The position numbers and the translations under genes are program-made. Positions 6,552 through 63,012 of a DNA stretch of 64,000 nucleotides are shown here, piece by piece (within the stretch, counting starts at the first letter, position 1; every line of letters begins with the position of its first letter). This DNA is from Escherichia phage VerenaGrendelmeier_Bas101. The DNA lies in the sequence record PQ850631.1; one strand, written 5' to 3'. The notes beneath the pieces were generated by a model. It did no database searches. It was given only the letters and a program-made list of their open reading frames with translations, and was not told the DNA's origin.

Positions 6552-6584
6552 ATTCATCGGCAAAGGATTGCCGCGAGTTTTATA

Positions 6585-6850
6585 CGTATAATGACGTATC
6601 ATCCGTATCAAGTAAGTTGTTGTTTTCAAAAGAATCTTACGGATGATACGCGTTGCCGCCGTACCATATAGGAATTCAAATAAATTAATTTAAAATTATA
6701 TATCTAATTTAATTTTATTTTTTTATAAACTCTTATATATGAAAAGTATCCGTATCATCCGTATCATCCGTAGCACACCAGTGATAGCGCGACTTATACA
6801 CCGATACGGATAAAAATACGCCTCATTTTATCCGTATCATCCGTATCACA
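6585..6850. repeat. control region A: conserved 14-mer CGTATAATGACGTA, 9-bp ATCCGTATC iterons and AT-rich tract
   Basis: 14-mer at 6585-6598; iterons at 6597-6610, 6637-6666 (inverted), 6748-6773 (three tandem units), 6803-6812, 6828-6848; AT-rich 6670-6745. Confidence 0.6.
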
Positions 6851-6905
6851 CTAATAAAGGCGCGGCTATATCGGTTGTTATACATATTCAAACCATAATT
6901 ATTGT

Positions 6906-6934
6906 TTGCCTAAGTTTTTTTCATTAGATATAAT
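6906..6934 (+). promoter_or_regulatory. sigma70-like promoter (TTGCCT-17-TATAAT) for head/tail operon
   Basis: -35 TTGCCT 6906-6911, -10 TATAAT 6929-6934, 24 nt upstream of the start of 6958..8379. Confidence 0.5.
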
Positions 6935-6957
6935 ACACAATACTTATTTGAGGGTGG

Positions 6958-8379
6958 ATGCGAATGCAAACGGCACGCGAAATTGACAAAAATGGATTCT
7001 TGACGATTATGGGTTGTCCAATTTCGTCATTTGGCATTTTTGATTATTCTGCTGGTCAAGTTGGTCTTGATGGTGATCCGAATCGCATCGTAAAAGTCTA
7101 TCGCCCTGAGTCAGCGGTGAAAGACCCCGAAGCGATAGATTCATTCAAAAATATCCCTTTCATCGACAATCACGAAATGCTTTCTGGATTTGAAGGTGAT
7201 GAGGATAACACGGCACCCGAAGAGTATGGTGTCGATGGCGTTCTAACTGGCAATGTTTATTATGACAAGCCATGGATGCGCGGCGACCTTAAAGTGTTCA
7301 GCCGTCGTCTTAAGAAGGCCATTGATTCTGGAAAGGTTGACTTGTCTTTGGGCTATGACTGTGAATTCATCATACAGTCTGGAGAGTTTGACGGGCAGCC
7401 GTATGAAGTGGTGCAGACAACTCTTCGCGGCAACCACATTGCTCTCGTGGACGTTGGTCGAGTACCAGGTGCACGGGTGCTGGATGGTCGTTGCTTTGAC
7501 CATCTTTGTTTGACGACTGTAACACCATCCAACGAGGATTTAGACATGCCAAAACCGTTAAAAGGTAAAGCGCGTGATAATGCTGTTGAACAGCTGAAAT
7601 CACTGATCCCTGCGCTCGAACAATTTCTGAATGAAGAGAGTGCTGAAGCTGCTCATCAGGACGAAGTTGAAGTGAAAGCAGAAGAGAAGGACTCAACCGA
7701 AAATCGTGAAGAAGTAATGGTTGATCCAGAAGTCAAGGCAGAAGCAGAAGAAACCCCAGAAGGTGAAGAGAAGTTTGAAGTTGAAACTGAATCTCACGCT
7801 GACGGCGAACTTCCGCAATTGATCAGCCAAATCGAAGCACTTATTGCAAAACTGAAAGGTGGCGCGGTAGGTGATGAAGAAGAAGTTGAAGCCGAAGTCA
7901 AAGACGAAGAAGAAGTTGAAGTCAAGGCTGAAGATGTATCACCTTGCGACAAAGCTGAAGATGTGGTTAGCGGCCTGCAAAACAGCAACGTAAAGGGGGC
8001 TTCGGTCGAAAAAGATGACAAACCGACAAAAGCGGCGAAAGCGTCGCCAGGTCCAGCAAAAGGGGAACACTCAATGGCATCTGATTCAGCAGTTGCTGCT
8101 TTCTACGCTGATTCTGCTCGTAAGAATAGCCTCTACCAGCGCCTGTCTAAAGTTGTTGGTGCCTTTGATCATGCAACTATGGACTCCAAGTCCGTAGCGA
8201 AATATGGCGCTAAAAAGTTAGGCTTGAAGTGCGTTGATGGTGCTGAGTTTGACGTGGTGGATAATTATCTGCGCGGCGTTGAGCACGGTCAAAAACAGCG
8301 TGTAGTCGCAAAACAAAAGGCCGCTGCGGATTCTGCAGCAACTGACGAAGCATTTGAAGCTTGGTTGAAAGGGGAATAA
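6958..8379 (+). CDS. putative scaffolding / prohead core protein
   Basis: 473 aa; globular N-terminal half, then highly acidic E/V/K-rich repeats (EEVEAEVKDEEEVEVKAED); lies between head-morphogenesis and capsid genes. Confidence 0.45.
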   Translation: MRMQTAREIDKNGFLTIMGCPISSFGIFDYSAGQVGLDGDPNRIVKVYRPESAVKDPEAIDSFKNIPFIDNHEMLSGFEGDEDNTAPEEYGVDGVLTGNVYYDKPWMRGDLKVFSRRLKKAIDSGKVDLSLGYDCEFIIQSGEFDGQPYEVVQTTLRGNHIALVDVGRVPGARVLDGRCFDHLCLTTVTPSNEDLDMPKPLKGKARDNAVEQLKSLIPALEQFLNEESAEAAHQDEVEVKAEEKDSTENREEVMVDPEVKAEAEETPEGEEKFEVETESHADGELPQLISQIEALIAKLKGGAVGDEEEVEAEVKDEEEVEVKAEDVSPCDKAEDVVSGLQNSNVKGASVEKDDKPTKAAKASPGPAKGEHSMASDSAVAAFYADSARKNSLYQRLSKVVGAFDHATMDSKSVAKYGAKKLGLKCVDGAEFDVVDNYLRGVEHGQKQRVVAKQKAAADSAATDEAFEAWLKGE

Positions 8380-43590: not shown

Positions 43591-44430
43591 TTATTCCGCT
43601 TGATCACCGTCTTCAGCATCGTCGTTGGATTCAACATCGACAAACTCGATGTGGCCCATCTCTTCCAGCTTGCTCAGGTAGGAGCGAACGGAAGCGCCAA
43701 ACAGTTGATCTTTAACTTTCTCGCCCAGCTCATCGATAGACTGTGCCACGCCAACTTCGCCTTCTTTGATCGCAGCCAGAACGCGTCCACGGGTGGAATG
43801 CTCTTGCGGCTGGCTCAGGCCATTACCAGTGTAGATGAAGTGAGTAGCTTTTGCACGACGCTGACCGTTTGCCTTTTTAGCAGCCTTACGTTCTGCGATG
43901 GCTTTGCGACGTTCTTCAGCTTCTTTCTTACGCTGTTCTTTCTGCTGTTCTGCAGCTTCTTTCGCCGCAATCTTAGCAGCTTCACGCTCTGCCTTGCGTT
44001 TCGCTTTAGCTTCTTCTTTGGCCTTCTCTTTTTCGGCCTTCGCTGCAGCACGGGCTTGATCACGCTCTGCTTTCTTAGCAGCAGCTTGTTCAGCTTTCAG
44101 GCGCTTGGCTTCTTCTTTAGCCTTTGCCTTTTCGATTTCTTTCGCTGCTTTAGCGGCTTCACGCTCTGCTTTCTTAGCAGCGGCCTTTTCTGCACGCTCT
44201 TTAGCTTTCTTGGCTGCTTCTTCAGCACGCTTCTGAGCCTTCTCATCAGCAGCCTGCTTGCGTTTCAGCGCAGCTTCTTCACGCTTGGCTTGTTTTTCCT
44301 GCTCACGCTTCTGGCGTTTTTCTTCGGCTTCTTTCTTTTTAGCCAGGCGTTTTTCTTCAGCCACGCGACGACGTTCTGCTGCAGCTGCTTGTTTTTCTTC
44401 TTTAGATAATACTTTGATTGCTTCGGCCAT
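43591..44430 (-). CDS. Lys/Ala/Glu-rich low-complexity protein with globular C-terminal domain
   Basis: about 200 aa of KAEE/AKKA-type charged repeats, then non-repetitive acidic C-terminus; ATG 44430 behind AAGGA. Confidence 0.5.
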   Translation of the reverse strand: MAEAIKVLSKEEKQAAAAERRRVAEEKRLAKKKEAEEKRQKREQEKQAKREEAALKRKQAADEKAQKRAEEAAKKAKERAEKAAAKKAEREAAKAAKEIEKAKAKEEAKRLKAEQAAAKKAERDQARAAAKAEKEKAKEEAKAKRKAEREAAKIAAKEAAEQQKEQRKKEAEERRKAIAERKAAKKANGQRRAKATHFIYTGNGLSQPQEHSTRGRVLAAIKEGEVGVAQSIDELGEKVKDQLFGASVRSYLSKLEEMGHIEFVDVESNDDAEDGDQAE

Positions 44431-44589
44431 GTTCACAGTCCTTAAATAAATTAGTTTATTTTATATTCCCCGTTTGGGATAACTTAATTATGCCTTCAGT
44501 CGCCGCCAGTAGCAACTAAAAACTATGGCGGCGATGCCACTTTAATTAAACTGATTTTCAGTTTTATTTTTCGTAAATTTACGTCAACA

Positions 44590-46260: not shown

Positions 46261-47343
46261 ATGGCTAGTTTAAGAGAAGAAGCAAAAATAATTGAAGAGT
46301 TTTTAACAGAACTCCAAAGAGGCATCCCAGAAGATGAGCGCGTCATGACGGTGTTTGCTCCTGAAGCAACGGTACAGACCGACGAGCGCGGCAAGAAGAT
46401 CAACAGCAGCTTCTGGCCTAAGCCTTGGAAGTTGGGCAAGCCGCTCATGCAGCACCAAAACGGCTATGCTTGCATCAGTTCAATGCGTAAGTCTCCCAAC
46501 CCAAAGACGGGTGAGATGCGATACTGGCGTACAGAGTCGGCCTTTGGTCACGGCATGGCGATGATGGTCGACGACATCGGTCACGGTAAAGGGTCCAAAG
46601 GCGATTTAGATTTGGAGTTCTTTTTCGAGCGACTGAAGCCGACTGTCATAGTCGAGACGTCACCGAACAACCACCAGCTTTGGTACTTCTTTAAAGAACC
46701 GATTGACCATCTTATTCAGTTCAAAGCATTTCTTGGGTCTTTCGTTAACATGGTACTCAAGAAGGGCGGCGACAACACGATTAAAGACGTAACGCGCGTT
46801 GGCCGTGTTCCTGGGTGCATCAACAACAAGCGTGTGACTCACGACGGCCCCTATAAATATGTCGATGAGAACGGCGACCCGTTCCGCTGCCGACTTGTCC
46901 ATGCAGACTACTCCTTGCGCTACACCATCGAAGACATCTGTCAGGCATTCGGCTTTCACGTCGTTATGCCGCAAAAGCGTGAGATTCAAATTGACGTAGA
47001 TGAATACAAGTACGATGCTGTTTGGTATAAAATAGCCCAGCAGATTCTAGCGCGCAACAAGATGGGTGAAGGGTCTGATGGCGACGTCATCGAGAATATG
47101 TCAGGCAAGTGCCGCATAATCTGCCCTTGGGGTGAAGAACACACCAACGGCGACCCGTATGGCGCTTACTTTCGCGGCCCTATCCCTGGTGCAGAACATG
47201 AGTTTGTGTTCGGTTGCGCCCACGACTGTCACCGGAAAGGGGAAGGCAAGAAAGGTTGGACTGCTTTTGTTGAAGCAATCGTCATGCCTTATATTGAGAA
47301 TCAACTTGACATGATAAATCGTCGTGCAGGTGGCATAAAATAG
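46261..47343 (+). CDS. putative primase (primase-polymerase / RepB'-like) with C-terminal Cys/His cluster
   Basis: 360 aa; MMVDDIGHG, SPNNHQLWYF and RVPGCINNK motifs; C-terminal CRIICPWGEEH...CAHDCH. Confidence 0.4.
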   Translation: MASLREEAKIIEEFLTELQRGIPEDERVMTVFAPEATVQTDERGKKINSSFWPKPWKLGKPLMQHQNGYACISSMRKSPNPKTGEMRYWRTESAFGHGMAMMVDDIGHGKGSKGDLDLEFFFERLKPTVIVETSPNNHQLWYFFKEPIDHLIQFKAFLGSFVNMVLKKGGDNTIKDVTRVGRVPGCINNKRVTHDGPYKYVDENGDPFRCRLVHADYSLRYTIEDICQAFGFHVVMPQKREIQIDVDEYKYDAVWYKIAQQILARNKMGEGSDGDVIENMSGKCRIICPWGEEHTNGDPYGAYFRGPIPGAEHEFVFGCAHDCHRKGEGKKGWTAFVEAIVMPYIENQLDMINRRAGGIK

Positions 47344-48652: not shown

Positions 48653-50323
48653 ATGTCAATTAATAATGACAATCTTCCAGAGGATACAGGTGATGAATTT
48701 GGTGCAATCTTTGACGAAATTCAAGATGCAGGCGTTTCGGAAGAAATGCAGGCAGCAGAGCAGCAAGGCACCAGAGCTAAAATCAGCCTTCAACACAAAG
48801 CCGTTGAAAAAGATTCAGAGCGCATGGAGTGTTACGGTGAAGAAGACTTGGTTGAAAGAGCACGCTTGCTCGCCTCACTTCAGGTAATCAAGTTCCCTCA
48901 CTACAAGCCGACCAAAGATGACTTCGTTCTACAGGCAGACCGGACGAGTGACATGAACCGCTATGCGGTGTTCGACGCGTTGTTTGATAAGGGAAGTGGC
49001 ATTGTTCCATTCCCTCACAAAGATACTTTTCGTGGGCGCTTAGTCGACCATCGCGGCGAAACATTCACTGACCGTACCTTGGAAGTCACAGAGATAGTTG
49101 CCGCTGTCGACGCAGCAGGGCTGTCTAACCCAAACTCACGTCAGGTTGCTCAATCCTATAAGGAATGGGCCATGCGTTATCAGCGCGACGACCTGATGGA
49201 CTTCTTCTACAAGAAGCTGCCTGAATGGGACGGTACTGCGCGCATCGAGAAATACCTTATCGAGCTATTCCGACCGTTCGATACAGAGTTAAACCGACAA
49301 ATCGGTGTGTATTTTTGGCTATCGCTCTACAACCGCCTGACCAACCCTGGCTGTCAAGCGCCAATCTCCATCGCGCTCATCGGCGGCCAGAACGCAGGGA
49401 AGAGTTATTTTAGCAAGCTGCTTTGCGAAGCTATTATGAACGACCGCCACGCAACACCGATTCCGTTGAACTTAGCCGCGCAAAACTTCAACCCGTTCTT
49501 GCGAGCTATTACGGGTCGCTCGATTATCGCGAACGTCGGCGAGATGACAGGCTTTAAAAAGGCCGACATCGAAAACATGAAAGCATTCCTGACTAAGACG
49601 GAAGATGACCTGGACTTCAAATTTGAAGATACGCAGGTTAAACCACGCCAGTGGATTGCTATCATGGACGGCAACGAATACGCAGGCATGCAGCGTGATG
49701 ACACGGGCAACCGTCGTGTGTATCCTATCTTTGTTGGCCAACTCGCCGACAAGGACGGGCAACCGAACTGGTCGAAAGATTTCCAAGCTGACCTTTCCAC
49801 TTTGAAAGAAGACGTTTGGCAGCTTATGGCTGAGTGCGCTGCGTGGATGGAGAAGCACGGCGAAGCAGGCTATAACGCGTTTGTTGGTGAAACATCTCGC
49901 ATGCTTACTGAGTTCAGTAAAAACGAGATGGAACGCGCTCGCGGCGTTATCCGTGATGAGATGGTTGACAACGACCTTGTTGAAGTCGTCATCACCGCGC
50001 CTTATGATCGACATCACAGCGGACGCTGGCACATCACCAGTGGTGCTATTGCTATGGGATTCAGAGCGAAGTGCGGCAAGTCGCCTTTCTCTCGTACCCT
50101 TGCGCCGCACATGTCGAAGCTTGGTTTTGAGCCTGCAACCTATCGCAACCAGCGCGGTTACTTTACGCCGCTGATTAAGAATGAAGCAGGGGAATACATT
50201 TCTGATTTGATGACCATCTTAGCGTATCTTATCCGCGATGAGTCTGACCCTGAAGATATTGAATTCTTGAAGAAGGTTATCGAGCGTAAACGTTCTTTGG
50301 GAAGAGATAAGGATGAATTCTGA
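48653..50323 (+). CDS. primase-associated P-loop ATPase/helicase (VirE / D5-like)
   Basis: 556 aa; Walker A IGGQNAGKSY; overall resemblance to phage/plasmid primase C-terminal ATPase. Confidence 0.5.
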   Translation: MSINNDNLPEDTGDEFGAIFDEIQDAGVSEEMQAAEQQGTRAKISLQHKAVEKDSERMECYGEEDLVERARLLASLQVIKFPHYKPTKDDFVLQADRTSDMNRYAVFDALFDKGSGIVPFPHKDTFRGRLVDHRGETFTDRTLEVTEIVAAVDAAGLSNPNSRQVAQSYKEWAMRYQRDDLMDFFYKKLPEWDGTARIEKYLIELFRPFDTELNRQIGVYFWLSLYNRLTNPGCQAPISIALIGGQNAGKSYFSKLLCEAIMNDRHATPIPLNLAAQNFNPFLRAITGRSIIANVGEMTGFKKADIENMKAFLTKTEDDLDFKFEDTQVKPRQWIAIMDGNEYAGMQRDDTGNRRVYPIFVGQLADKDGQPNWSKDFQADLSTLKEDVWQLMAECAAWMEKHGEAGYNAFVGETSRMLTEFSKNEMERARGVIRDEMVDNDLVEVVITAPYDRHHSGRWHITSGAIAMGFRAKCGKSPFSRTLAPHMSKLGFEPATYRNQRGYFTPLIKNEAGEYISDLMTILAYLIRDESDPEDIEFLKKVIERKRSLGRDKDEF

Positions 50324-58980: not shown

Positions 58981-59021
58981 GAGATATAGTTAGCTGGCTA
59001 ACCTTACGCATAGAATTTAAG

Positions 59022-59310
59022 CGTATAATGACGTAAGATTTGGACCTATCCGTAGTTCACTCCACACACTTCTATGGTGCGCCGCGACTGGGTTCAGTGG
59101 TACATCTTACGGATGATACGGATGATACGCGTCGCCGCTATACTTTATACAACTTTGAAAAAAACAATTAACTCCATTTTGAATTAATTTAAATTAATTT
59201 TTTTCTACATCCTCATACTTATACTAAACTTATATTTATACGTATTATCCGTAAGATATAAGTAAAAACAAAGACTTGCGGCAATACGGATGATACGTCA
59301 CGATACGCTT
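59022..59310. repeat. control region B: same 14-mer CGTATAATGACGTA, iterons and AT-rich tract as region A
   Basis: 14-mer 59022-59035; CTTACGGATGATACGGATGATACGCGTCGCCGCTA 59107-59140 matches 6637-6666; iteron copies at 59046-59055, 59243-59257, 59282-59307; AT-rich 59145-59240. Confidence 0.6.
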
Positions 59311-59472
59311 CAACCAGCCAGCAGCGGCTAAGTCATTGATTTGCATAACAAGCGACGAAAGGGATGGATTTCTTTTATACGTATCAAACAGTACACCACG
59401 CACCACGGTCCGTTATCCATCCAGCACTATGATTTGTGTACGTTTATAGCCATAATGAACATCAATCTGCAC

Positions 59473-59501
59473 TTGAATATAATGTCCATCCATTGTATAA
59501 T
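59473..59501 (+). promoter_or_regulatory. sigma70-like promoter (TTGAAT-17-TATAAT)
   Basis: -35 59473-59478, -10 59496-59501 with TG immediately upstream. Confidence 0.4.
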
Positions 59502-59521
59502 TCACACTATTAATTTGCACT

Positions 59522-60010
59522 ATGGGATTTTGCACTATGAGTCAAGATTATGTAGCGATGCCTGAAGACTTTGAAGACCCGCGATTCGCAGAGCACAATC
59601 AGGCTTTATTCGATGAGTTCATTGACCTTGTTATTCAGGGCCATGACATGCGCGCAGCTTTTGCACTAGTATTTGGAATGGAAGTTGCAACGGATAACTA
59701 CACTGGCCAGCGAATCCTTTGCACGCAACGCAATCCATACTACAAGATGCGCTTCAAAAAGCGTATGGAAGAGATGCCACTCAAGGATTTGTGGAGCGTA
59801 AAAGGTGCAATTCACAATTTGGTCAAGCTTGTGCGTGATCCAGAAGTCGCGGCGTCAGCCAAGCTTAATGCTATTCGTGAACTGAATATCATCTATGGCA
59901 TCACGATGATTGATGAAAACGGCAATAGTAAAATGGGCCGTTCTATGGACGATTTCTACAAGGATTTTGGAGAGGCGGCCAAAGAAGGCGAGCAATTCTC
60001 CCGCCACTAG
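59522..60010 (+). CDS. hypothetical protein
   Basis: 162-aa ORF; start region overlaps two TTTGCACTAT copies; start codon uncertain (59522 or 59537). Confidence 0.4.
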   Translation: MGFCTMSQDYVAMPEDFEDPRFAEHNQALFDEFIDLVIQGHDMRAAFALVFGMEVATDNYTGQRILCTQRNPYYKMRFKKRMEEMPLKDLWSVKGAIHNLVKLVRDPEVAASAKLNAIRELNIIYGITMIDENGNSKMGRSMDDFYKDFGEAAKEGEQFSRH

Positions 60011-60029
60011 CCAATTTGCACTATAAAAC

Positions 60030-60063
60030 GGCCCTAGAACACATTGTCTCCACTTCTAGGGCC
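60030..60063 (+). terminator. hairpin after 59522..60010 (weak U-tract)
   Basis: GGCCCTAGAA / TTCTAGGGCC 10-bp stem with 14-nt loop. Confidence 0.35.
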
Positions 60064-60124
60064 ATCGGTAATACGACGGGGAAGGTTGCAACCGTAAACG
60101 CGTTAGAAAGTGTATTATTATAAG

Positions 60125-60388
60125 TCATCTTTTAGTCACCTTACGTAACAATTTACGACCTTCAACCGTCCAATCGAACGACTCCACCAGCAGATTCGCA
60201 CTATAACCTAAGATGATGCGCCCTTTCTCGTTATCGACCCGCCAACAAGTCTCGAATAGCATTCGATTTGCACTATTAACTATCGCCGCAACGCGCGTTG
60301 GGTAAACGCAATTTGCACTATGGTCGTAAAGGGATAAGGTGCGACCACTTCCGATGGACAATGTAGCGATGAGAATAAGCGTATTCAT
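60125..60388 (-). CDS. hypothetical small protein
   Basis: 87-aa ORF; three in-frame TTTGCACTAT copies translate as SAN tripeptides; weak support. Confidence 0.3.
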   Translation of the reverse strand: MNTLILIATLSIGSGRTLSLYDHSANCVYPTRVAAIVNSANRMLFETCWRVDNEKGRIILGYSANLLVESFDWTVEGRKLLRKVTKR

Positions 60389-60438
60389 AAGCCACCAATT
60401 TGCACTATGAAAAGCGACCCCGAAGGGCCGCCATTCGA

Positions 60439-61065
60439 TTAGATAATCTGGAATGTGTAGGACTTGTTGCCGAACTCAAAGTTCAAGCGTCCAGCTTCTT
60501 TAAGCTTCATGCGGAAGCGAATGTGCTTACTATCCGGTAAGCCCAGCGCGGCGAACGCCACGCGGACCGATTTGAACTCGCCTACACCCTCGACCATAAC
60601 GCCGTTACGCGTGAGACGCTTTTGCGCCACTTCCTTGTTATCCCAACTTTTTGCAATACCTTCGCTATTCGAACGGCGATGGGAAGGAGTTCCATTTTGC
60701 ACTACGCAATTTGCACTATCGTTTAGGCCGCTTTTAACGAAGGCTTCATACTCTTCGTCGGTCATCGCGTCGAGTTCTTCCTGGGTCGGCTCGGCCTTTT
60801 TAACGACCGCACGCGCCTTATGCGTTTTTACATCGCTGGACACTTCCTCGCGCGGCTTCGCGTCGGGAATGGGCGATTCGTTGGACGGCTCATCGAGCGC
60901 GTTTAAGGACTCGATTAACGCGATTACGCGAGTCTCGGCGGTACGGCGGTCCGCAAATTTCTTAATCGGCTTCGAACCGGAATTTGCATTATAAAATGCA
61001 ACGAGGTCGGCGGTCTTAGTTGCGATAACGTCGCCGCTAGTCGAGAAACGATTTAAGCTAACCAT
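60439..61065 (-). CDS. hypothetical protein
   Basis: 208 aa; conserved initiation region ATAGGAGTTCATT-ATG. Confidence 0.45.
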   Translation of the reverse strand: MVSLNRFSTSGDVIATKTADLVAFYNANSGSKPIKKFADRRTAETRVIALIESLNALDEPSNESPIPDAKPREEVSSDVKTHKARAVVKKAEPTQEELDAMTDEEYEAFVKSGLNDSANCVVQNGTPSHRRSNSEGIAKSWDNKEVAQKRLTRNGVMVEGVGEFKSVRVAFAALGLPDSKHIRFRMKLKEAGRLNFEFGNKSYTFQII

Positions 61066-61145
61066 AATGAACTCCTATTTGTTAGGGCGCTAGGCGCGAA
61101 AGAATTTTATTAAAGCGCCGCGCGCGACGCTCTAAAAATCCTCTC

Positions 61146-61460
61146 TTACTCTTCGTCGTCTTCGATTAATTCGAGGGCGAAGGCGTAAGCTTTGCTATCG
61201 TAATTAACTAAAACGGCGAGTTCGAACTCGTTAATAAACGCCGTTTTACCGCATAAATTTAATTCCGCATCGACTTCGAAGAATCCGTTTTCGTCGCGCT
61301 CTAAGCGAGAAGCAGCGAGTTGCTCGATTACCGTCGCGTCGTTAATTTCTTCGCCTAAGCGAACGCCGGAGAATTTCGCGAGAATTTCGCCGTAAGTAAG
61401 CGTAACGCCCTGGACTTCGGCGGTTGCGTTTTCGAGGGTAAAGCGGGTAACGATAGCCAT
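61146..61460 (-). CDS. small acidic protein
   Basis: 104 aa ending LIEDDEE; conserved initiation region CTAGGAGTTTATT-ATG. Confidence 0.45.
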   Translation of the reverse strand: MAIVTRFTLENATAEVQGVTLTYGEILAKFSGVRLGEEINDATVIEQLAASRLERDENGFFEVDAELNLCGKTAFINEFELAVLVNYDSKAYAFALELIEDDEE

Positions 61461-61600
61461 AATAAACTCCTAGTTGGGAGAGGCGTTAACGACCTATTCG
61501 TTAACTCATCCCGTCCCGATATGAGTACATTATAATATAGTGTAGAAAAAAGTAAAGCACTTTTTCGATAAAAATGCGATAAATTATTTTATCTTTTTTC

Positions 61601-61628
61601 TTTACTTCTTCGTACACTCGCGTATACT
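61601..61628 (+). promoter_or_regulatory. sigma70-like promoter (TTTACT-16-TATACT)
   Basis: within direct repeat CTTTACTTCTTCGTACACT also found at 62003. Confidence 0.45.
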
Positions 61629-61684
61629 TGTTTATATCGAGACGGGCGATGGCCCTTCCTTCTACTAGCATCGGGAGTTTTATT

Positions 61685-61987
61685 ATGACCACTTTAATCT
61701 CTTCTATCCTTACTTACGACGAAGACCGTTTAACCGTTCGCTCTCTTATCGCCGCCGTTAACGCGGAACTAGAATCCACCATTATTAAGGTCCGCGCGGT
61801 CGCTTTCGTCGGCCTTTCCTTCGACGATATTAAGTACGCCGAACGTAGCGCCATCCGCTTCGCGAAGACCGACGACGAAGCCGTTACCCTTATCGAGACG
61901 GTTACGCCGCGCGGCGAAGCGTTAATTATCGTCGAGTATATCGACGTAGAAGGCGATAAGGCTTATAAATATTTTATTGCAGAATAA
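61685..61987 (+). CDS. small acidic protein
   Basis: start at ATG 61685 behind GGGAGTTTTATT; 100 aa. Confidence 0.45.
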   Translation: MTTLISSILTYDEDRLTVRSLIAAVNAELESTIIKVRAVAFVGLSFDDIKYAERSAIRFAKTDDEAVTLIETVTPRGEALIIVEYIDVEGDKAYKYFIAE

Positions 61988-61998
61988 CGAAAAAGTGC

Positions 61999-62027
61999 TT
62001 TACTTCTTCGTACACTAAGACTATAAT
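61999..62027 (+). promoter_or_regulatory. sigma70-like promoter (TTTACT-17-TATAAT)
   Basis: -35 61999-62004, -10 62022-62027; paralogous to promoter at 61601. Confidence 0.5.
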
Positions 62028-62094
62028 GTTTTATATCGAGAGGGGATGAGGTAGCGAATAGGTCGCTACCCGCCCGACCAACTAGGAGATTATT

Positions 62095-62385
62095 ATGATT
62101 ACTTTAGCCGCTATCCGTTCCGCTCGCGTCGAGACTTCCGAAAACTCTAACGTATTTGGCGAAACCTTAGAGAGCGTTTATCTCTCTAACGTAGACGCAA
62201 CTATCGAACCTATTTATGAGCCGATCAACTTCCTCGACCTTTACAAGTATCGCGACGAGGACATCGTATCATCCCGCGTAACGATTAACGGCTTCGTCTA
62301 TACGATTACCGAAATCGGCGGCGAATATCTCGCTGTACCGCAACTCGGCGGCGAAGTAACTTATTTTAAAATTGTCTCCTTATAA
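62095..62385 (+). CDS. small acidic protein
   Basis: 96 aa; conserved initiation region CTAGGAGATTATT-ATG; 5' UTR hairpin GGTAGCG / CGCTACC 62050-62070. Confidence 0.45.
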   Translation: MITLAAIRSARVETSENSNVFGETLESVYLSNVDATIEPIYEPINFLDLYKYRDEDIVSSRVTINGFVYTITEIGGEYLAVPQLGGEVTYFKIVSL

Positions 62386-62404
62386 TATCCTTCCGTTACT
62401 AATA

Positions 62405-62430
62405 GGCCGCGCTTAGTCGCGGCTTTTCTT
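62405..62430 (+). terminator. rho-independent terminator
   Basis: GCCGCG / CGCGGC stem, 6-nt loop, then TTTTCTT. Confidence 0.55.
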
Positions 62431-62549
62431 CGTCCCTATCTCGATGCGCTTCTCCGCGAAAACTCCTTTATCCTTCCCTTCGTCGTCGCATAATCTTCGT
62501 CGAGATGCGCCTTAGTTCGCATAACAGGTATTACGTTAAATGGAGAACA

Positions 62550-63012
62550 TCGCGTAAGTCCTTGTTTTATATAGACACCTATATCGGACCGTTAGGGCGG
62601 GTCGCGTAAGTCGTTGTTTTATAAAGGCGCAAAACTTTCCCTTCGTTCCGAACTAAAACGAGGAATATGCCGACCCTTCGCCCGAAAATAGTACGCATGC
62701 GAAATCACATGCATCTCGAATAATCCCCACCGATATTATCCTACACGCAATCATTCGCTTTCGAATCATTATGCTTCATATTATTATGCGTCGAATCATT
62801 CGCTTTCGAATTGTAACGCTGGAAACTGTAACGGCGATTGATTATTGCGTTCGTGTGGTTTTTAGGGCATGGGTCTTTTGGTGCGTTTTGGTGCTTGATG
62901 GAATTTGCGGTACACTAATCAAAATACGACACATTTGGTCCACTAACTTTTCAAAGAAAAAGTCCTAGACAGTACCGTACTATTTTGTACCCACAGGAAT
63001 TTGCAGTACACT
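62550..63012. repeat. non-coding region with three families of direct repeats
   Basis: TCGCGTAAGTCnTTGTTTTATA at 62550 and 62602; AATCATTCGCTTTCGAAT at 62749 and 62794; GGAATTTGCrGTACACT at 62900 and 62996. Confidence 0.55.

What the first reader, a model, noticed from the sequence alone, without database searches (positions are those of the whole stretch)
6552..6957. Control region A: conserved 14-mer, 9-bp iterons and AT-rich tract, duplicated 52 kb away
This 400-bp non-coding gap inside the head gene block carries CGTATAATGACGTA, at least five copies of ATCCGTATC in both orientations (three in tandem at 6748-6773), and a 75-bp AT-rich tract. The same elements recur in the same order at 59022-59310; CTTACGGATGATACGCGTTGCCGCCGTA matches CTTACGGATGATACGGATGATACGCGTCGCCGCTA. 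Iterons beside an AT-rich tract are the classic layout of a replication origin or a multi-site regulator array.
Basis: seen in the sequence. Interest (0 to 1): 0.55.

Follow-up and report, generated by a model that had tools for sequence, protein, structure and literature searches.

The report
Second copy of phage replication-origin-like element
This conserved non-coding gap in the head genes of an E. coli Wifcevirus phage is one of two copies of an iteron-plus-AT-rich element that most likely binds the phage's own SaPI-Rep-like initiator helicase, and the other copy also holds the physical left end of the packaged genome.

Summary
ATCCGTATC occurs 7 times in 64 kb (0.31 expected): 6 in region A and 1 in region B. 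The 14-mer occurs only in A and B. Their AT tracts are the two least stable duplex stretches in the window.

The window is a Wifcevirus, a PB1-like E. coli myovirus. A lies between a terminator and the sigma-70 promoter of the head protease/scaffold gene.

An A/B pair exists in five lineages: Wifcevirus, two metagenomic relatives, Myosmarvirus and Pbunavirus. Each lineage has its own iteron, shared by its A and B. So one phage-encoded protein that co-evolves with the repeats probably reads both.

The best candidate is the 556-aa VapE protein at 48653-50323. It is a full-length structural homologue of the SaPI1 initiator-helicase Rep1. Rep1 origins have opposed iterons on both sides of an AT-rich centre. 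The protein's C-terminal winged-helix-like domain is its fastest-evolving part.

New here: B sits just upstream of terS, and the virion DNA left end (start of a ~3.7 kb terminal repeat) maps near B's dyad centre, in a conserved AACTCC|ATTTT site that A lacks.

Best reading: A is a second origin or Rep-bound auxiliary site, like SPP1 oriR. This is untested. A TerS-binding array is the main rival.

The parts
6558..6583 (+). Terminator-like hairpin (CGGCAAAGGATTGCCG) plus T-run that closes the upstream head-gene operon
   Evidence: The hairpin is conserved in other Wifceviruses.
6585..6610 (+). Left outer arm: the 14-mer CGTATAATGACGTA (a 10-bp-spaced iteron variant) overlapping CGTATCATCCGTATCA
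   Evidence: family D2; inverted pair I3, 13/13 complementary to 6638-6650.
6612..6632 (+). GTAAGTTGTTGTTTTCAAAAG box in the spacer between opposed iterons
   Evidence: The pattern GTAAGTNNTTGTTTT gives 4 hits against 0.17 expected: A, B (- strand) and two near the terminal-repeat right end.
6636..6652 (-). Left inner iteron arm (CTTACGGATGATACG). One 9-bp unit shorter than in other Wifceviruses
6653..6663 (.). GC box (TTGCCGCCGTA, core GCCGC at 6655-6659), mirrored by GCGGC at 6862-6866
   Evidence: Read from the sequence. GCGGC(A) boxes next to the AT tract recur in Pbunavirus, Myosmarvirus, XcP1, L029 and L030.
6666..6745 (.). AT-rich core (91% AT); candidate DNA-unwinding element and dyad centre near 6696-6700
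   Evidence: Least stable 60-100 bp stretch of the window, z about 4.5-4.9. Internal AT palindromes (I1, I9, I10).
6747..6774 (+). Three tandem 9-bp iterons (ATCCGTATC, ATCCGTATC, ATCCGTAGC) that face the left inner arm across the AT core
   Evidence: I4, I5.
6803..6847 (.). One inverted iteron (6803-6811, - strand) plus two tandem iterons (6830-6847, + strand). Includes a perfect 13-bp inverted repeat, 6803-6815 with 6826-6838
   Evidence: I7. Folds as a single-stranded DNA hairpin with z = -5.95.
6906..6934 (+). Sigma-70 promoter (TTGCCT, 17 bp spacer, TATAAT) of the head protease/scaffold operon. This is a neighbour of the element, not part of it
   Evidence: The homologous promoter in Pbunavirus 14-1 is an experimentally mapped start site, P014.
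59016..59054 (+). Region B, left outer arm: the 14-mer plus one ATCCGTA
   Evidence: I2: 20 nt, 85% complementary to 59294-59313.
59101..59138 (-). Region B, left inner arm (CTTACGGATGATACGGATGATACG) plus a GCCGC box
   Evidence: I1: 23 nt, 87% complementary to 59238-59260.
59141..59240 (.). Region B AT-rich core. It contains the conserved site AATTAACTCC|ATTTT (59166-59180). The virion DNA left end, which is the first base of the direct terminal repeat, is 59176
   Evidence: Second least stable stretch of the window. WFC record position 1 and Mansfield position 1 (set by PhageTerm) both map to 59176. The site is invariant across Wifcevirus haplotypes and in L029 and is unique in the window.
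59238..59313 (.). Region B right arms: CGTATTATCCGTAAG, the inverted GTAAGT box, GCGGCA, TACGGATGATACGTCACGATACG
59537..60010 (+). Small terminase (TerS) gene with its own sigma-70 promoter at 59473-59501
   Evidence: phmmer E = 6e-34 to the E217 TerS structure 7UXE. Promoter. Annotated as TerS in phage Mansfield.
48653..50323 (+). Candidate iteron-binding initiator: VapE / SaPI-Rep1-like helicase with a variable C-terminal winged-helix-like domain (residues about 436-504)
46261..47343 (+). RepB'-type primase, the partner of the initiator helicase
   Evidence: PF16793, E = 4.5e-36.

Best explanation
**Claim.** Region A is one of two paralogous origin-type elements in this phage. The other, B, lies upstream of terS.

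**Anatomy.** Each element is a dyad. Short iterons (core ATCCGTA / GATACG, tandem spacing 9 or 10 bp) point towards each other across an 80-100 bp AT-rich core. GCCGC/GCGGC boxes sit beside the core.

**Proposed mechanism (inferred).**
1. The phage's SaPI-Rep1-like initiator-helicase (48653-50323) reads the iterons with its fast-evolving C-terminal winged-helix-like domain.
2. It assembles on both sides of the AT core and melts it.
3. It loads itself as the replicative helicase.
4. The RepB'-type primase (46261-47343) primes DNA synthesis.

**What differs between the copies.** B additionally carries a conserved terminase cut site, AACTCC|ATTTT, that defines the left end of the terminal repeat. 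A lacks this site. A would therefore act only in replication. It could be a second origin, or a Rep-bound auxiliary or fork-arrest site like SPP1 oriR. It is insulated between a terminator and the head-operon promoter.

**Shown versus inferred.** Shown here: the anatomy, its conservation, the co-variation of iterons, the homology of the initiator, and the position of the DNA end by homology to deposited records. Inferred: which protein binds the iterons, and whether A fires as an origin.
For: **1. Architecture.** Opposed iteron arrays flank the AT cores, which are the two least stable duplex stretches in the window.

**2. Matching initiator family.** The 556-aa VapE protein matches SaPI1 Rep1 (PDB 7PDS).
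- Sequence: E = 4e-11 for the single protein, 1.5e-20 for a profile.
- Fold: AlphaFold2 model with pLDDT 89.7; Foldseek top hit 7PDS, E = 2e-16, about 480 aligned columns.
- SaPI origins have 6-12 short iterons, half on each side of an AT-rich centre, with at least two per side in opposite directions. They are read by the Rep C-terminal winged helix, and a primase gene lies upstream (PMC9371898).

**3. Fast-evolving DNA-binding domain.** Rep residues 441-556 are 52-58% identical to the closest relative (L029), against 82-92% across residues 81-400 (85-92% for most of it), and fall to about 10-22% in Myosmarvirus.

**4. Iterons co-vary between A and B in five lineages.**
- Wifcevirus: ATCCGTATC.
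- L029/L031: GATACGT types.
- L030/L032: TTATCCGCAAGA.
- Myosmarvirus: ACTTTTCG.
- Pbunavirus: GGTAATT.

**5. Position relative to the rep gene.** B lies immediately downstream of the rep homologue in Pbunavirus, Myosmarvirus and Xanthomonas phage XcP1. In XcP1, terS is 3.5 kb further on and has no such element in front of it.

**6. Independence from packaging mode.** Pbunaviruses keep both elements although they are reported to package by headful without fixed ends.

**7. A lacks the cut site.** The conserved AACTCC|ATTTT site is found only in B.

**8. Selection on A.** The non-coding core of A is 97-99% invariant.

**9. Precedent.** SPP1 has a second origin, oriR, in its late-gene region between transcription signals. 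It is bound by the same origin-binding protein as oriL and is proposed to stall forks (abstract of PMC3485210).
Against: - No experiment shows Rep binding or replication initiation at A or B in any of these phages.
- In this window A is about 42 kb from rep. B is 8.7 kb from rep but abuts terS.
- The virion end lies in B, so a packaging function is certain or near-certain for B. That function might account for the iterons.
- The iterons (9-12 bp) are longer than SaPI iterons (5-6 nt).
- XcP1 lacks A, so A is dispensable in at least one relative.
- GC skew gives no origin signal.
- The winged-helix assignment rests on predicted topology only.
Confidence: 0.55

Rival explanations
1. The iterons are small-terminase (TerS) recognition arrays. 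B is the packaging-initiation site: TerS binds on both sides of the cut, as at SPP1 pacL/pacR or P1 pac. A is a second TerS-binding site without cleavage. It might pair with B, as in the T4 'pac synapsis' idea, or titrate TerS.
For: - The virion left end maps near B's dyad centre.
- terS lies immediately downstream of B in Wifcevirus, L029, L030, Myosmarvirus and Pbunavirus.
- The homologous E217 TerS is a decameric ring with N-terminal helix-turn-helix motifs. An iteron period of 9-10 bp would suit DNA wrapped around such a ring (my inference).
- Flanking multi-site recognition is known for SPP1 pac.
- The T4 twin-ring synapsis model proposes two distant TerS sites.
Against: - In XcP1 the AT-rich, GCGGC-box element stays with rep. 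Nothing comparable precedes terS, 3.5 kb away.
- A lacks the conserved cut site, and no deposited record reports an end at A.
- Pbunaviruses keep both elements although PhageTerm finds no pac or terminal-repeat signal.
- E217 TerS showed no appreciable DNA binding in vitro.
- TerS divergence is spread evenly along the protein rather than concentrated in its DNA-binding end.
- This reading gives no reason for the deepest duplex-stability minimum to be at A.
Confidence: 0.2
2. A and B are operator arrays for a phage transcription factor. The factor would control the promoter downstream of each element: the head protease/scaffold/capsid operon after A, and terS after B.
For: - Each element lies upstream of a good sigma-70 promoter.
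- In Pbunavirus 14-1 a start site, P040, lies inside the B-equivalent tandem iterons.
- Earlier PB1-like phage papers noted AT-rich boxes and unexplained motifs in intergenic regions and suggested they might be recognised by a phage sigma factor.
Against: - The distance from the arrays to the promoter differs: about 60 bp in A and about 175 bp in B.
- Other late operons have no such arrays.
- No start site lies in the iteron/AT part of the A-equivalent in 14-1.
- A 300-bp dyad with a 90% AT core, and five lineages of iteron turnover, is more than simple operators usually need.
- No candidate regulator was identified.
Confidence: 0.12
3. The region encodes a structured RNA, or a small RNA started at the TATAAT inside the 14-mer.
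For: - The 14-mer contains TATAAT.
- The region folds better than shuffled controls (z = -4.9).
Against: - No Rfam family matches at the gathering threshold. Only noise appears at E of 1 or less.
- The fold signal is simply the inverted iterons.
- TATAAT is not kept in the B copies of other Wifceviruses, where it reads CGTATCATGACGTA.
- No start site was mapped in the homologous part of 14-1.
- The motifs occur in both orientations, which fits protein sites on double-stranded DNA.
Confidence: 0.04

Closest known systems
SaPI (staphylococcal pathogenicity island) replication origin with its Rep initiator-helicase and Pri primase
   Same: - Short iterons lie on both sides of a central AT-rich region, with at least two per side in opposite orientation.
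- The initiator is a self-loading hexameric helicase with a specificity-determining C-terminal winged helix.
- There is a separate primase gene upstream.
- Iteron sequence differs between lineages.
- The phage protein is a sequence and fold homologue of SaPI1 Rep1.
   Different: - The SaPI origin is single and lies immediately 3' of rep. Here there are two copies, A is 42 kb from rep, and B in this genome is 8.7 kb away.
- The iterons are 9-12 bp rather than 5-6 nt.
- The primase is of the RepB' type.
- One copy also carries the virion DNA end.
- Function is untested.
Bacillus phage SPP1 oriL / oriR
   Same: - Two origin-type elements have the same organisation: repeats plus an AT-rich unwinding element.
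- One lies near the replication genes. The other interrupts the late (virion) gene block between transcription signals.
- Both are bound by one origin-binding protein.
- The late copy is proposed to stall forks and trigger the switch to concatemer synthesis.
   Different: - The initiator is unrelated: gp38 with a DnaB-type helicase and loader, not a Rep/VapE self-loading helicase.
- SPP1 packages by headful from a separate pac site.
- There is no sequence homology.
Satellite phage P4 ori / crr, read by the alpha primase-helicase (from my own knowledge, not checked here)
   Same: - Two distant cis elements carry the same short iterons in both orientations.
- Both are read by the C-terminal winged-helix domain of a primase-helicase initiator.
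   Different: - crr is not itself an origin.
- The distance is 4.5 kb in P4 and 16 or 52 kb here.
- The protein family differs (P4 alpha / D5-like rather than VapE).
Multi-site packaging signals: SPP1 pacL-pacC-pacR and P1 pac (from my own knowledge)
   Same: - Repeated short sites lie on both sides of the terminase cleavage point.
- They lie next to the terS gene. This applies to region B.
   Different: - A has no cut site and no terS neighbour.
- The phage makes exact ~3.7 kb terminal repeats rather than headful-permuted ends.
- TerS binding to the iterons is unproven.
RSF1010 oriV with the RepB' primase (from my own knowledge)
   Same: - Iterons plus an AT-rich region plus hairpin-forming priming signals used by a RepB'-family primase.
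- This phage has a RepB'-type primase, and A has two hairpin-capable inverted repeats.
   Different: - No RepC homologue was found.
- The hairpins here are built from the iterons themselves.
- Any priming role is pure inference.

Membership tests
Rep (SaPI/PICI-type self-loading helicase) iteron origin | A cognate Rep-family initiator-helicase is encoded by the same genome | tested here: met
   The protein at 48653-50323 carries PF05272. It matches 7PDS (SaPI1 Rep1) at E = 4e-11 and, as a profile, 1.5e-20. The Foldseek top hit is 7PDS over about 480 columns.
Rep (SaPI/PICI-type self-loading helicase) iteron origin | The initiator has a C-terminal winged-helix DNA-binding domain that sets iteron specificity | tested here: inconclusive
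   The model shows H-E-H-H-E-E topology at residues 436-504 with high confidence. This C-terminal domain is the fastest-evolving part of the protein. DNA binding itself was not tested.
Rep (SaPI/PICI-type self-loading helicase) iteron origin | Short iterons on both sides of a central AT-rich region, at least two per side, pointing in opposite directions | tested here: met
   In A, iterons lie at 6601(+) and 6638(-) on the left and at 6748, 6757, 6766(+), 6803(-), 6830 and 6839(+) on the right. The AT core at 6666-6745 is the stability minimum. B has the same layout.
Rep (SaPI/PICI-type self-loading helicase) iteron origin | [quoted passage not shown] | tested here: not met
   A is about 42 kb from rep, and B in this window is 8.7 kb downstream. 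The feature is met for the B element in PS44, MTx, MyoSmar and XcP1, and nearly met in L030.
Rep (SaPI/PICI-type self-loading helicase) iteron origin | Rep binds and melts the element and supports its replication | not testable with these tools
   This needs EMSA or footprinting and a plasmid-origin or marker-frequency assay.
SPP1-type dual origin (oriL/oriR) | Two elements of the same organisation, one inside the late-gene block and bracketed by transcription signals | tested here: met
   A lies between the terminator at 6558-6583 and the promoter at 6906-6934 within the head genes. B lies in the early/terS region.
SPP1-type dual origin (oriL/oriR) | A gp38-type origin-binding protein with a DnaB-type helicase and loader | tested here: not met
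   The replication genes found are a VapE/Rep-like helicase, a RepB' primase, an SNF2 helicase and a Dda-like helicase. The resemblance is an analogy only.
Terminase recognition site (pac/cos-like) | A virion DNA end maps inside the element | tested here: not met
   For A, no deposited record starts there and the conserved cut context TTAACTCCATTTT is absent. For B the feature is met by homology to WFC and Mansfield.
Terminase recognition site (pac/cos-like) | TerS binds the repeats | not testable with these tools
   The homologous E217 TerS is reported not to bind DNA appreciably in vitro. Its cognate site was not known to those authors.
DnaA-box cluster (host-initiator origin) | Several TTATNCACA boxes | tested here: not met
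   There is one match in the window, and none in A or B. The iterons differ between phages of hosts that share the same DnaA box. TTATCCGTA and TTATCCGCA only resemble the box.
Promoter/operator array | A transcription start lies inside or directly controlled by the repeat block | tested here: inconclusive
   The scan finds only the gene-proximal promoter in A. The 14-1 start-site map shows none in the iteron/AT part of the A-equivalent, but one (P040) in the B-equivalent iterons.
Known structured RNA | A match to an Rfam covariance model | tested here: not met

The most novel reading that the evidence does not exclude
In this phage family the long direct terminal repeat is made at a replication origin. 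The terminase cut AACTCC|ATTTT sits near the dyad centre of a Rep-type origin (B), so initiation at B and left-end formation or terminal-repeat duplication would be mechanistically coupled. The cut-site-free twin (A), in the head genes, would be a Rep-bound fork trap or second origin that times the switch to concatemer synthesis. This would give a concrete mechanism for forming long exact terminal repeats, which is poorly understood.
Probability: 0.15. Interest if true: 0.7.

Novelty: new member of a known kind. Interest (0 to 1): 0.45.

Why it matters
**Why these phages matter.** Wifcevirus and its Pbunavirus relatives are used or considered for phage therapy. Their replication origins and packaging signals are undefined.
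- Published guesses rest on GC skew, which here only tracks gene strand.
- Reports on Pbunavirus genome ends contradict each other.

**What this analysis offers.**
- Two precise candidate cis elements.
- A named candidate initiator.
- A defined terminase cut site. Knowing these would help genome rebooting and engineering of these phages.
- Five natural iteron/initiator pairs that could be used for specificity-swap experiments.

**Mechanistic interest.** A virion end near the dyad centre of an origin-like element hints at how long terminal repeats might be generated.

Tried and rejected
- **GC and AT skew.** They follow the four transcription blocks and say nothing about origins.
- **Rfam.** No hit at the gathering threshold on the whole window. 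Only noise on A at the permissive threshold.
- **tRNA/tmRNA scan.** None found.
- **DnaA boxes and IHF sites.** No DnaA box in A or B. One IHF-consensus match beside B (59329-59341), none in A, and the window-wide count is not above chance.
- **Promoter scan.** No sigma-70 match uses the TATAAT inside the 14-mer. That TATAAT is not conserved in B of other strains.
- **RNA and single-stranded DNA folding.** The strong z-scores only reflect the inverted iterons.
- **Pfam and NCBIfam for TerS.** No match. TerS was identified only through the PDB sequence search.
- **Linkage test (which gene does B stay with, rep or terS).** XcP1 favours rep and Wifcevirus favours terS. The ancestral order is rep-B-terS, so linkage alone does not decide.
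- **Per-domain divergence.** It favours the Rep C-terminal domain but does not exclude TerS.
- **Link between A and the terminal-repeat right end.** Only a 21-bp GTAAGT box is shared.
- **IMG/VR pattern scan for the L030-type tandem iteron.** No hits.
- **Papers not available.** The E217 terminase paper (PMC10026623) is not held. The journal version of the 14-1 transcriptome paper has no supplements held, so the bioRxiv version was used.
Full report
**What the window is.** The window matches 28 Wifcevirus records at 90-99% identity (E. coli and Shigella myoviruses, "PB1-like"). It has the same start as phage Bas100, with the large terminase at position 1. The gene layout is:
- virion genes on the + strand, 1-28.5 kb;
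- replication genes on the - strand, 28.5-46.2 kb;
- primase, Rep-like helicase and many small early ORFs on the + strand, 46.3-59 kb;
- then terS and a block of mostly - strand genes.

Region A (6552-6957) is the gap between a 45-aa ORF and the head protease/scaffold gene at 6958-8379.

**Checking the observation.**
- ATCCGTATC occurs 7 times against 0.31 expected, with six copies in A and one in B.
- The core ATCCGTA occurs 18 times against 5.3 expected, with 8 in A and 5 in B.
- The 14-mer occurs only in A and B, plus an inverted 2-mismatch copy in B.
- A and B align over about 200 bp in both orientations, because each is a nested dyad. Outer arms (the 14-mer type) and inner arms (iterons) face each other across an AT-rich core.
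- The two AT cores are the first and second least stable duplex stretches of the whole window at 60, 80 and 100 bp.
- A k-mer clustering scan ranks A as the strongest short-repeat cluster in the window.
- A has no ORF of 40 aa or more.
- A's core is 97-99% invariant among four Wifceviruses, while the coding sequence just upstream is only 74-92% invariant.
- This genome has lost one 9-bp unit from A's left array relative to six of the seven other sequences compared; the seventh is truncated before that position.

**Anatomy of A.**

| Coordinates | Feature |
|---|---|
| 6558-6583 | Terminator hairpin and T-run |
| 6585-6610 | Left outer arm |
| 6612-6632 | GTAAGT box |
| 6636-6652 | Left inner arm (- strand) |
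| 6655-6659 | GCCGC box |
| 6666-6745 | AT core, 91% AT |
| 6747-6774 | Three tandem iterons |
| 6803-6847 | One inverted plus two tandem iterons, forming a perfect 13-bp inverted repeat |
| 6862-6866 | GCGGC box |
| 6906-6934 | Sigma-70 promoter TTGCCT-17-TATAAT of the head operon |

- The gene at 59537-60010 is the small terminase. It matches the solved TerS of Pseudomonas phage E217 at E = 6e-34 (7UXE) and is annotated as TerS in phage Mansfield.
- Wifceviruses have a ~3.7 kb direct terminal repeat (Korf 2019; Mansfield announcement).
- Two independently deposited genomes opened at that repeat both start at the base that corresponds to window 59176. These are WFC (72,472 bp with both repeat copies) and Mansfield (opened with PhageTerm).
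- That base lies inside B's AT core. It is 5 bp from the centre of the inner arms and 12 bp from the centre of the outer arms.
- The surrounding sequence AATTAACTCC|ATTTT is an invariant island in an otherwise variable tract. It is conserved across both Wifcevirus haplotypes of B and in a relative whose Rep is only 75% identical.
- It is unique in the window and absent from A.
- The right end of the repeat maps to about 62959 by homology to WFC. It has other repeats and no iterons.

These ends are inferred by homology to public records. The window itself cannot show them.

**The A/B pair is old, and its iterons co-vary.**

| Lineage | Shared iteron and other shared sequence |
|---|---|
| Serratia phages MTx and MyoSmar (Myosmarvirus; protease 53% identical) | A 470-bp gap at the same place before the protease gene, and a paralogous element at the PhageTerm-defined repeat boundary. 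Both use ACTTTTCG / CACTTTT (8-bp tandem); 5 of 6 genomic ACTTTTCG copies lie in the two elements. The two copies also share long blocks around the terminus. |
| Pseudomonas phage PS44 (Pbunavirus) | Both elements use GGTAATT / GTAATTTGG. Of 10 GGTAATT matches in the record, 7 lie in the two elements, 1 is the start-of-record duplicate of a B copy and 2 are background. |
| Metagenomic lineage L029/L031 (Rep 75% identical) | GATACGT-type units with 10-bp spacing, plus the 9-bp type |
| Metagenomic lineage L030/L032 (Rep 56% identical) | TTATCCGCAAGA in both, with obvious paralogy of the AT cores |

GCGGC(A) boxes next to the AT tract are common to all lineages.

Xanthomonas phage XcP1 has the B-type element but no A.

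The hosts share the same DnaA box, yet the iterons differ by phage lineage.

**Candidate reader.** The 556-aa protein at 48653-50323 carries a VapE domain.
- It matches SaPI1 Rep1 (PDB 7PDS) by sequence, at 4e-11 for the single protein and 1.5e-20 for a profile.
- An AlphaFold2 model (pLDDT 89.7) has 7PDS as its top Foldseek hit over about 480 columns. The next hits are NrS-1, ASFV, poxvirus D5/E5 and SaPI5 primase-helicases.
- The paper on these Reps (PMC9371898) describes the SaPI origin. It has 6-12 short iterons just downstream of rep and an AT-rich centre, with at least two iterons per side pointing in opposite directions. The iterons are read by the Rep C-terminal winged helix, the helicase is self-loading, and a primase gene lies upstream.
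- The phage protein's residues 436-504 have helix-strand-helix-helix-strand-strand topology.
- Residues 441-556 are by far its fastest-evolving part.
- A RepB'-type primase gene lies upstream at 46261-47343.
- The B element lies directly downstream of the rep homologue in PS44, MTx, MyoSmar and XcP1, and about 1.2 kb downstream in L030 (one ORF and one more small ORF intervene). In XcP1, terS is 3.5 kb further on with only a terminator and a promoter before it.
- In Wifcevirus and L029, an ~8 kb block of small ORFs has been inserted between rep and B.

**Transcription.** ONT-cappable-seq of Pbunavirus 14-1 (bioRxiv 10.1101/2023.10.13.562163, Table S3) gives the following.
- In the A-equivalent gap there is a single start site, P014. 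It is the gene-proximal sigma-70 promoter, homologous to 6906-6934 here.
- None lies in the iteron/AT part. An earlier computational promoter call there, in JG024, is therefore not borne out.
- In the B-equivalent, P040 starts inside the tandem iterons and P041 lies before terS.

**Interpretation.** The features shared by A and B (opposed iterons, deepest melting minimum, GC boxes) fit a Rep-type origin. The feature unique to B (the conserved cut site with terS next door) fits packaging.

Pbunaviruses keep both elements although they are reported to be headful packagers without fixed ends. This also separates the iteron function from terminal-repeat formation.

I therefore read A as a second copy of the origin module that has no packaging role. 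I cannot say whether it fires or only binds Rep. The closest functional precedent for a copy placed in the late genes between transcription signals is SPP1 oriR. The origin-binding protein bound at oriR is proposed to stall forks and trigger concatemer synthesis. I put this reading at about 0.55.

**Rivals.**
- *TerS-binding arrays, about 0.2.* This explains B well: the end, the terS neighbour, and a 9-10 bp period that would suit DNA wrapped on a decameric ring. It is weakened by XcP1, by A lacking the cut site, by the Pbunavirus data, and by the reported lack of DNA binding by E217 TerS.
- *Operator arrays, about 0.12.* This fits the downstream promoters and P040. It does not fit the unequal spacing, the lack of such arrays at other late operons, or the 14-1 map for A.
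- *RNA element, about 0.04.* It has no support.

**Novelty.** I found no paper that identifies these elements as origins or packaging sites.
- PB1-like phage papers mention AT-rich boxes and motifs of unknown function.
- A recent Pbunavirus paper infers origins from GC skew elsewhere in the genome.

As a kind of thing, an iteron origin for a Rep/VapE initiator with a second copy elsewhere is known biology, so I class this as a new member of a known kind. The position of the terminal-repeat end near the dyad centre of the origin-like element is the unusual point, and it is where a more novel mechanism could hide.

Noticed in passing
window 59514-60992: TTTGCACTAT (1 mismatch or fewer) occurs 11 times, all on the + strand. 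It runs from the terS ribosome-binding region through the first 1.5 kb of the terminal repeat and lies partly inside - strand ORFs. Only one further match exists in the rest of the window. In a similar place, MTx has AAAAAATAAGCATGCTTTGTA three times just after terS. The function is unknown; it could be a directional packaging, injection or anti-nuclease signal.
   Followed up: partly
window 6612-6626, 59265-59279 (-), 62554-62568, 62606-62620: A GTAAGTNNTTGTTTT box occurs in A, in B (inverted), and twice about 350-400 bp inside the right end of the terminal repeat. That is 4 hits against 0.17 expected. It is the only sequence that links A and B to the right-end region.
   Followed up: partly
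window 62400-62960: The non-coding region ending at the inferred right end of the terminal repeat (about 62959...TTTTCAAAGAAA|AAGTCC) carries its own direct repeats, for example AATCATTCGCTTTCGAAT twice. It has no ATCCGTA iterons.
   Followed up: partly
window 6636-6652 versus other Wifceviruses: There is copy-number variation of the 9-bp iteron. This genome has one TACGGATGA unit in A's left array, where six of the seven other Wifcevirus sequences compared have two; the seventh is truncated there.
   Followed up: yes
window 59000-59104: The left part of B exists in two unrelated haplotypes among Wifceviruses, with a mosaic break at about 59104. Both still carry a 14-mer-type unit and one ATCCGTA.
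   Followed up: partly
window 59329-59341 (-): A single IHF-consensus match (AATCAATGACTTA) lies just right of B's outer arm. There is none in A, and the window-wide count is not above chance.
   Followed up: no
L025 35-998 and L024 14388-14900 (Pseudomonas phage PS44): In PS44, each element has its own extended inverted repeat around the AT core. In A it is CCTACTGCCGCGAG ... CTCGCGGCAGTAGG. In B it is CTTAGTGCCGCG ... TGCGGCACTAAG. The arms therefore differ between A and B but stay complementary within each element.
   Followed up: no
KM434184.1 (PS44 record) 1-2450: The start of this GenBank record duplicates 60397-62346 and 68430-68618. It looks like an assembly chimera or deletion variant rather than a true terminal repeat. 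Another paper also excluded a 68.8-kb Pbunavirus genome as misassembled.
   Followed up: partly
window 43919-44303: A cluster of AAGAAGC / AGCGTGA repeats lies inside the - strand ORF 43591-44436. It probably encodes a repetitive Lys/Glu/Ala-rich protein segment. A similar cluster occurs in MTx at 56.0-56.4 kb.
   Followed up: no
MTx versus MyoSmar terminal-repeat boundary: The PhageTerm-annotated ends of two Myosmarvirus genomes fall about 15 bp apart within homologous sequence. The single-base position of the end in this family therefore remains uncertain.
   Followed up: no
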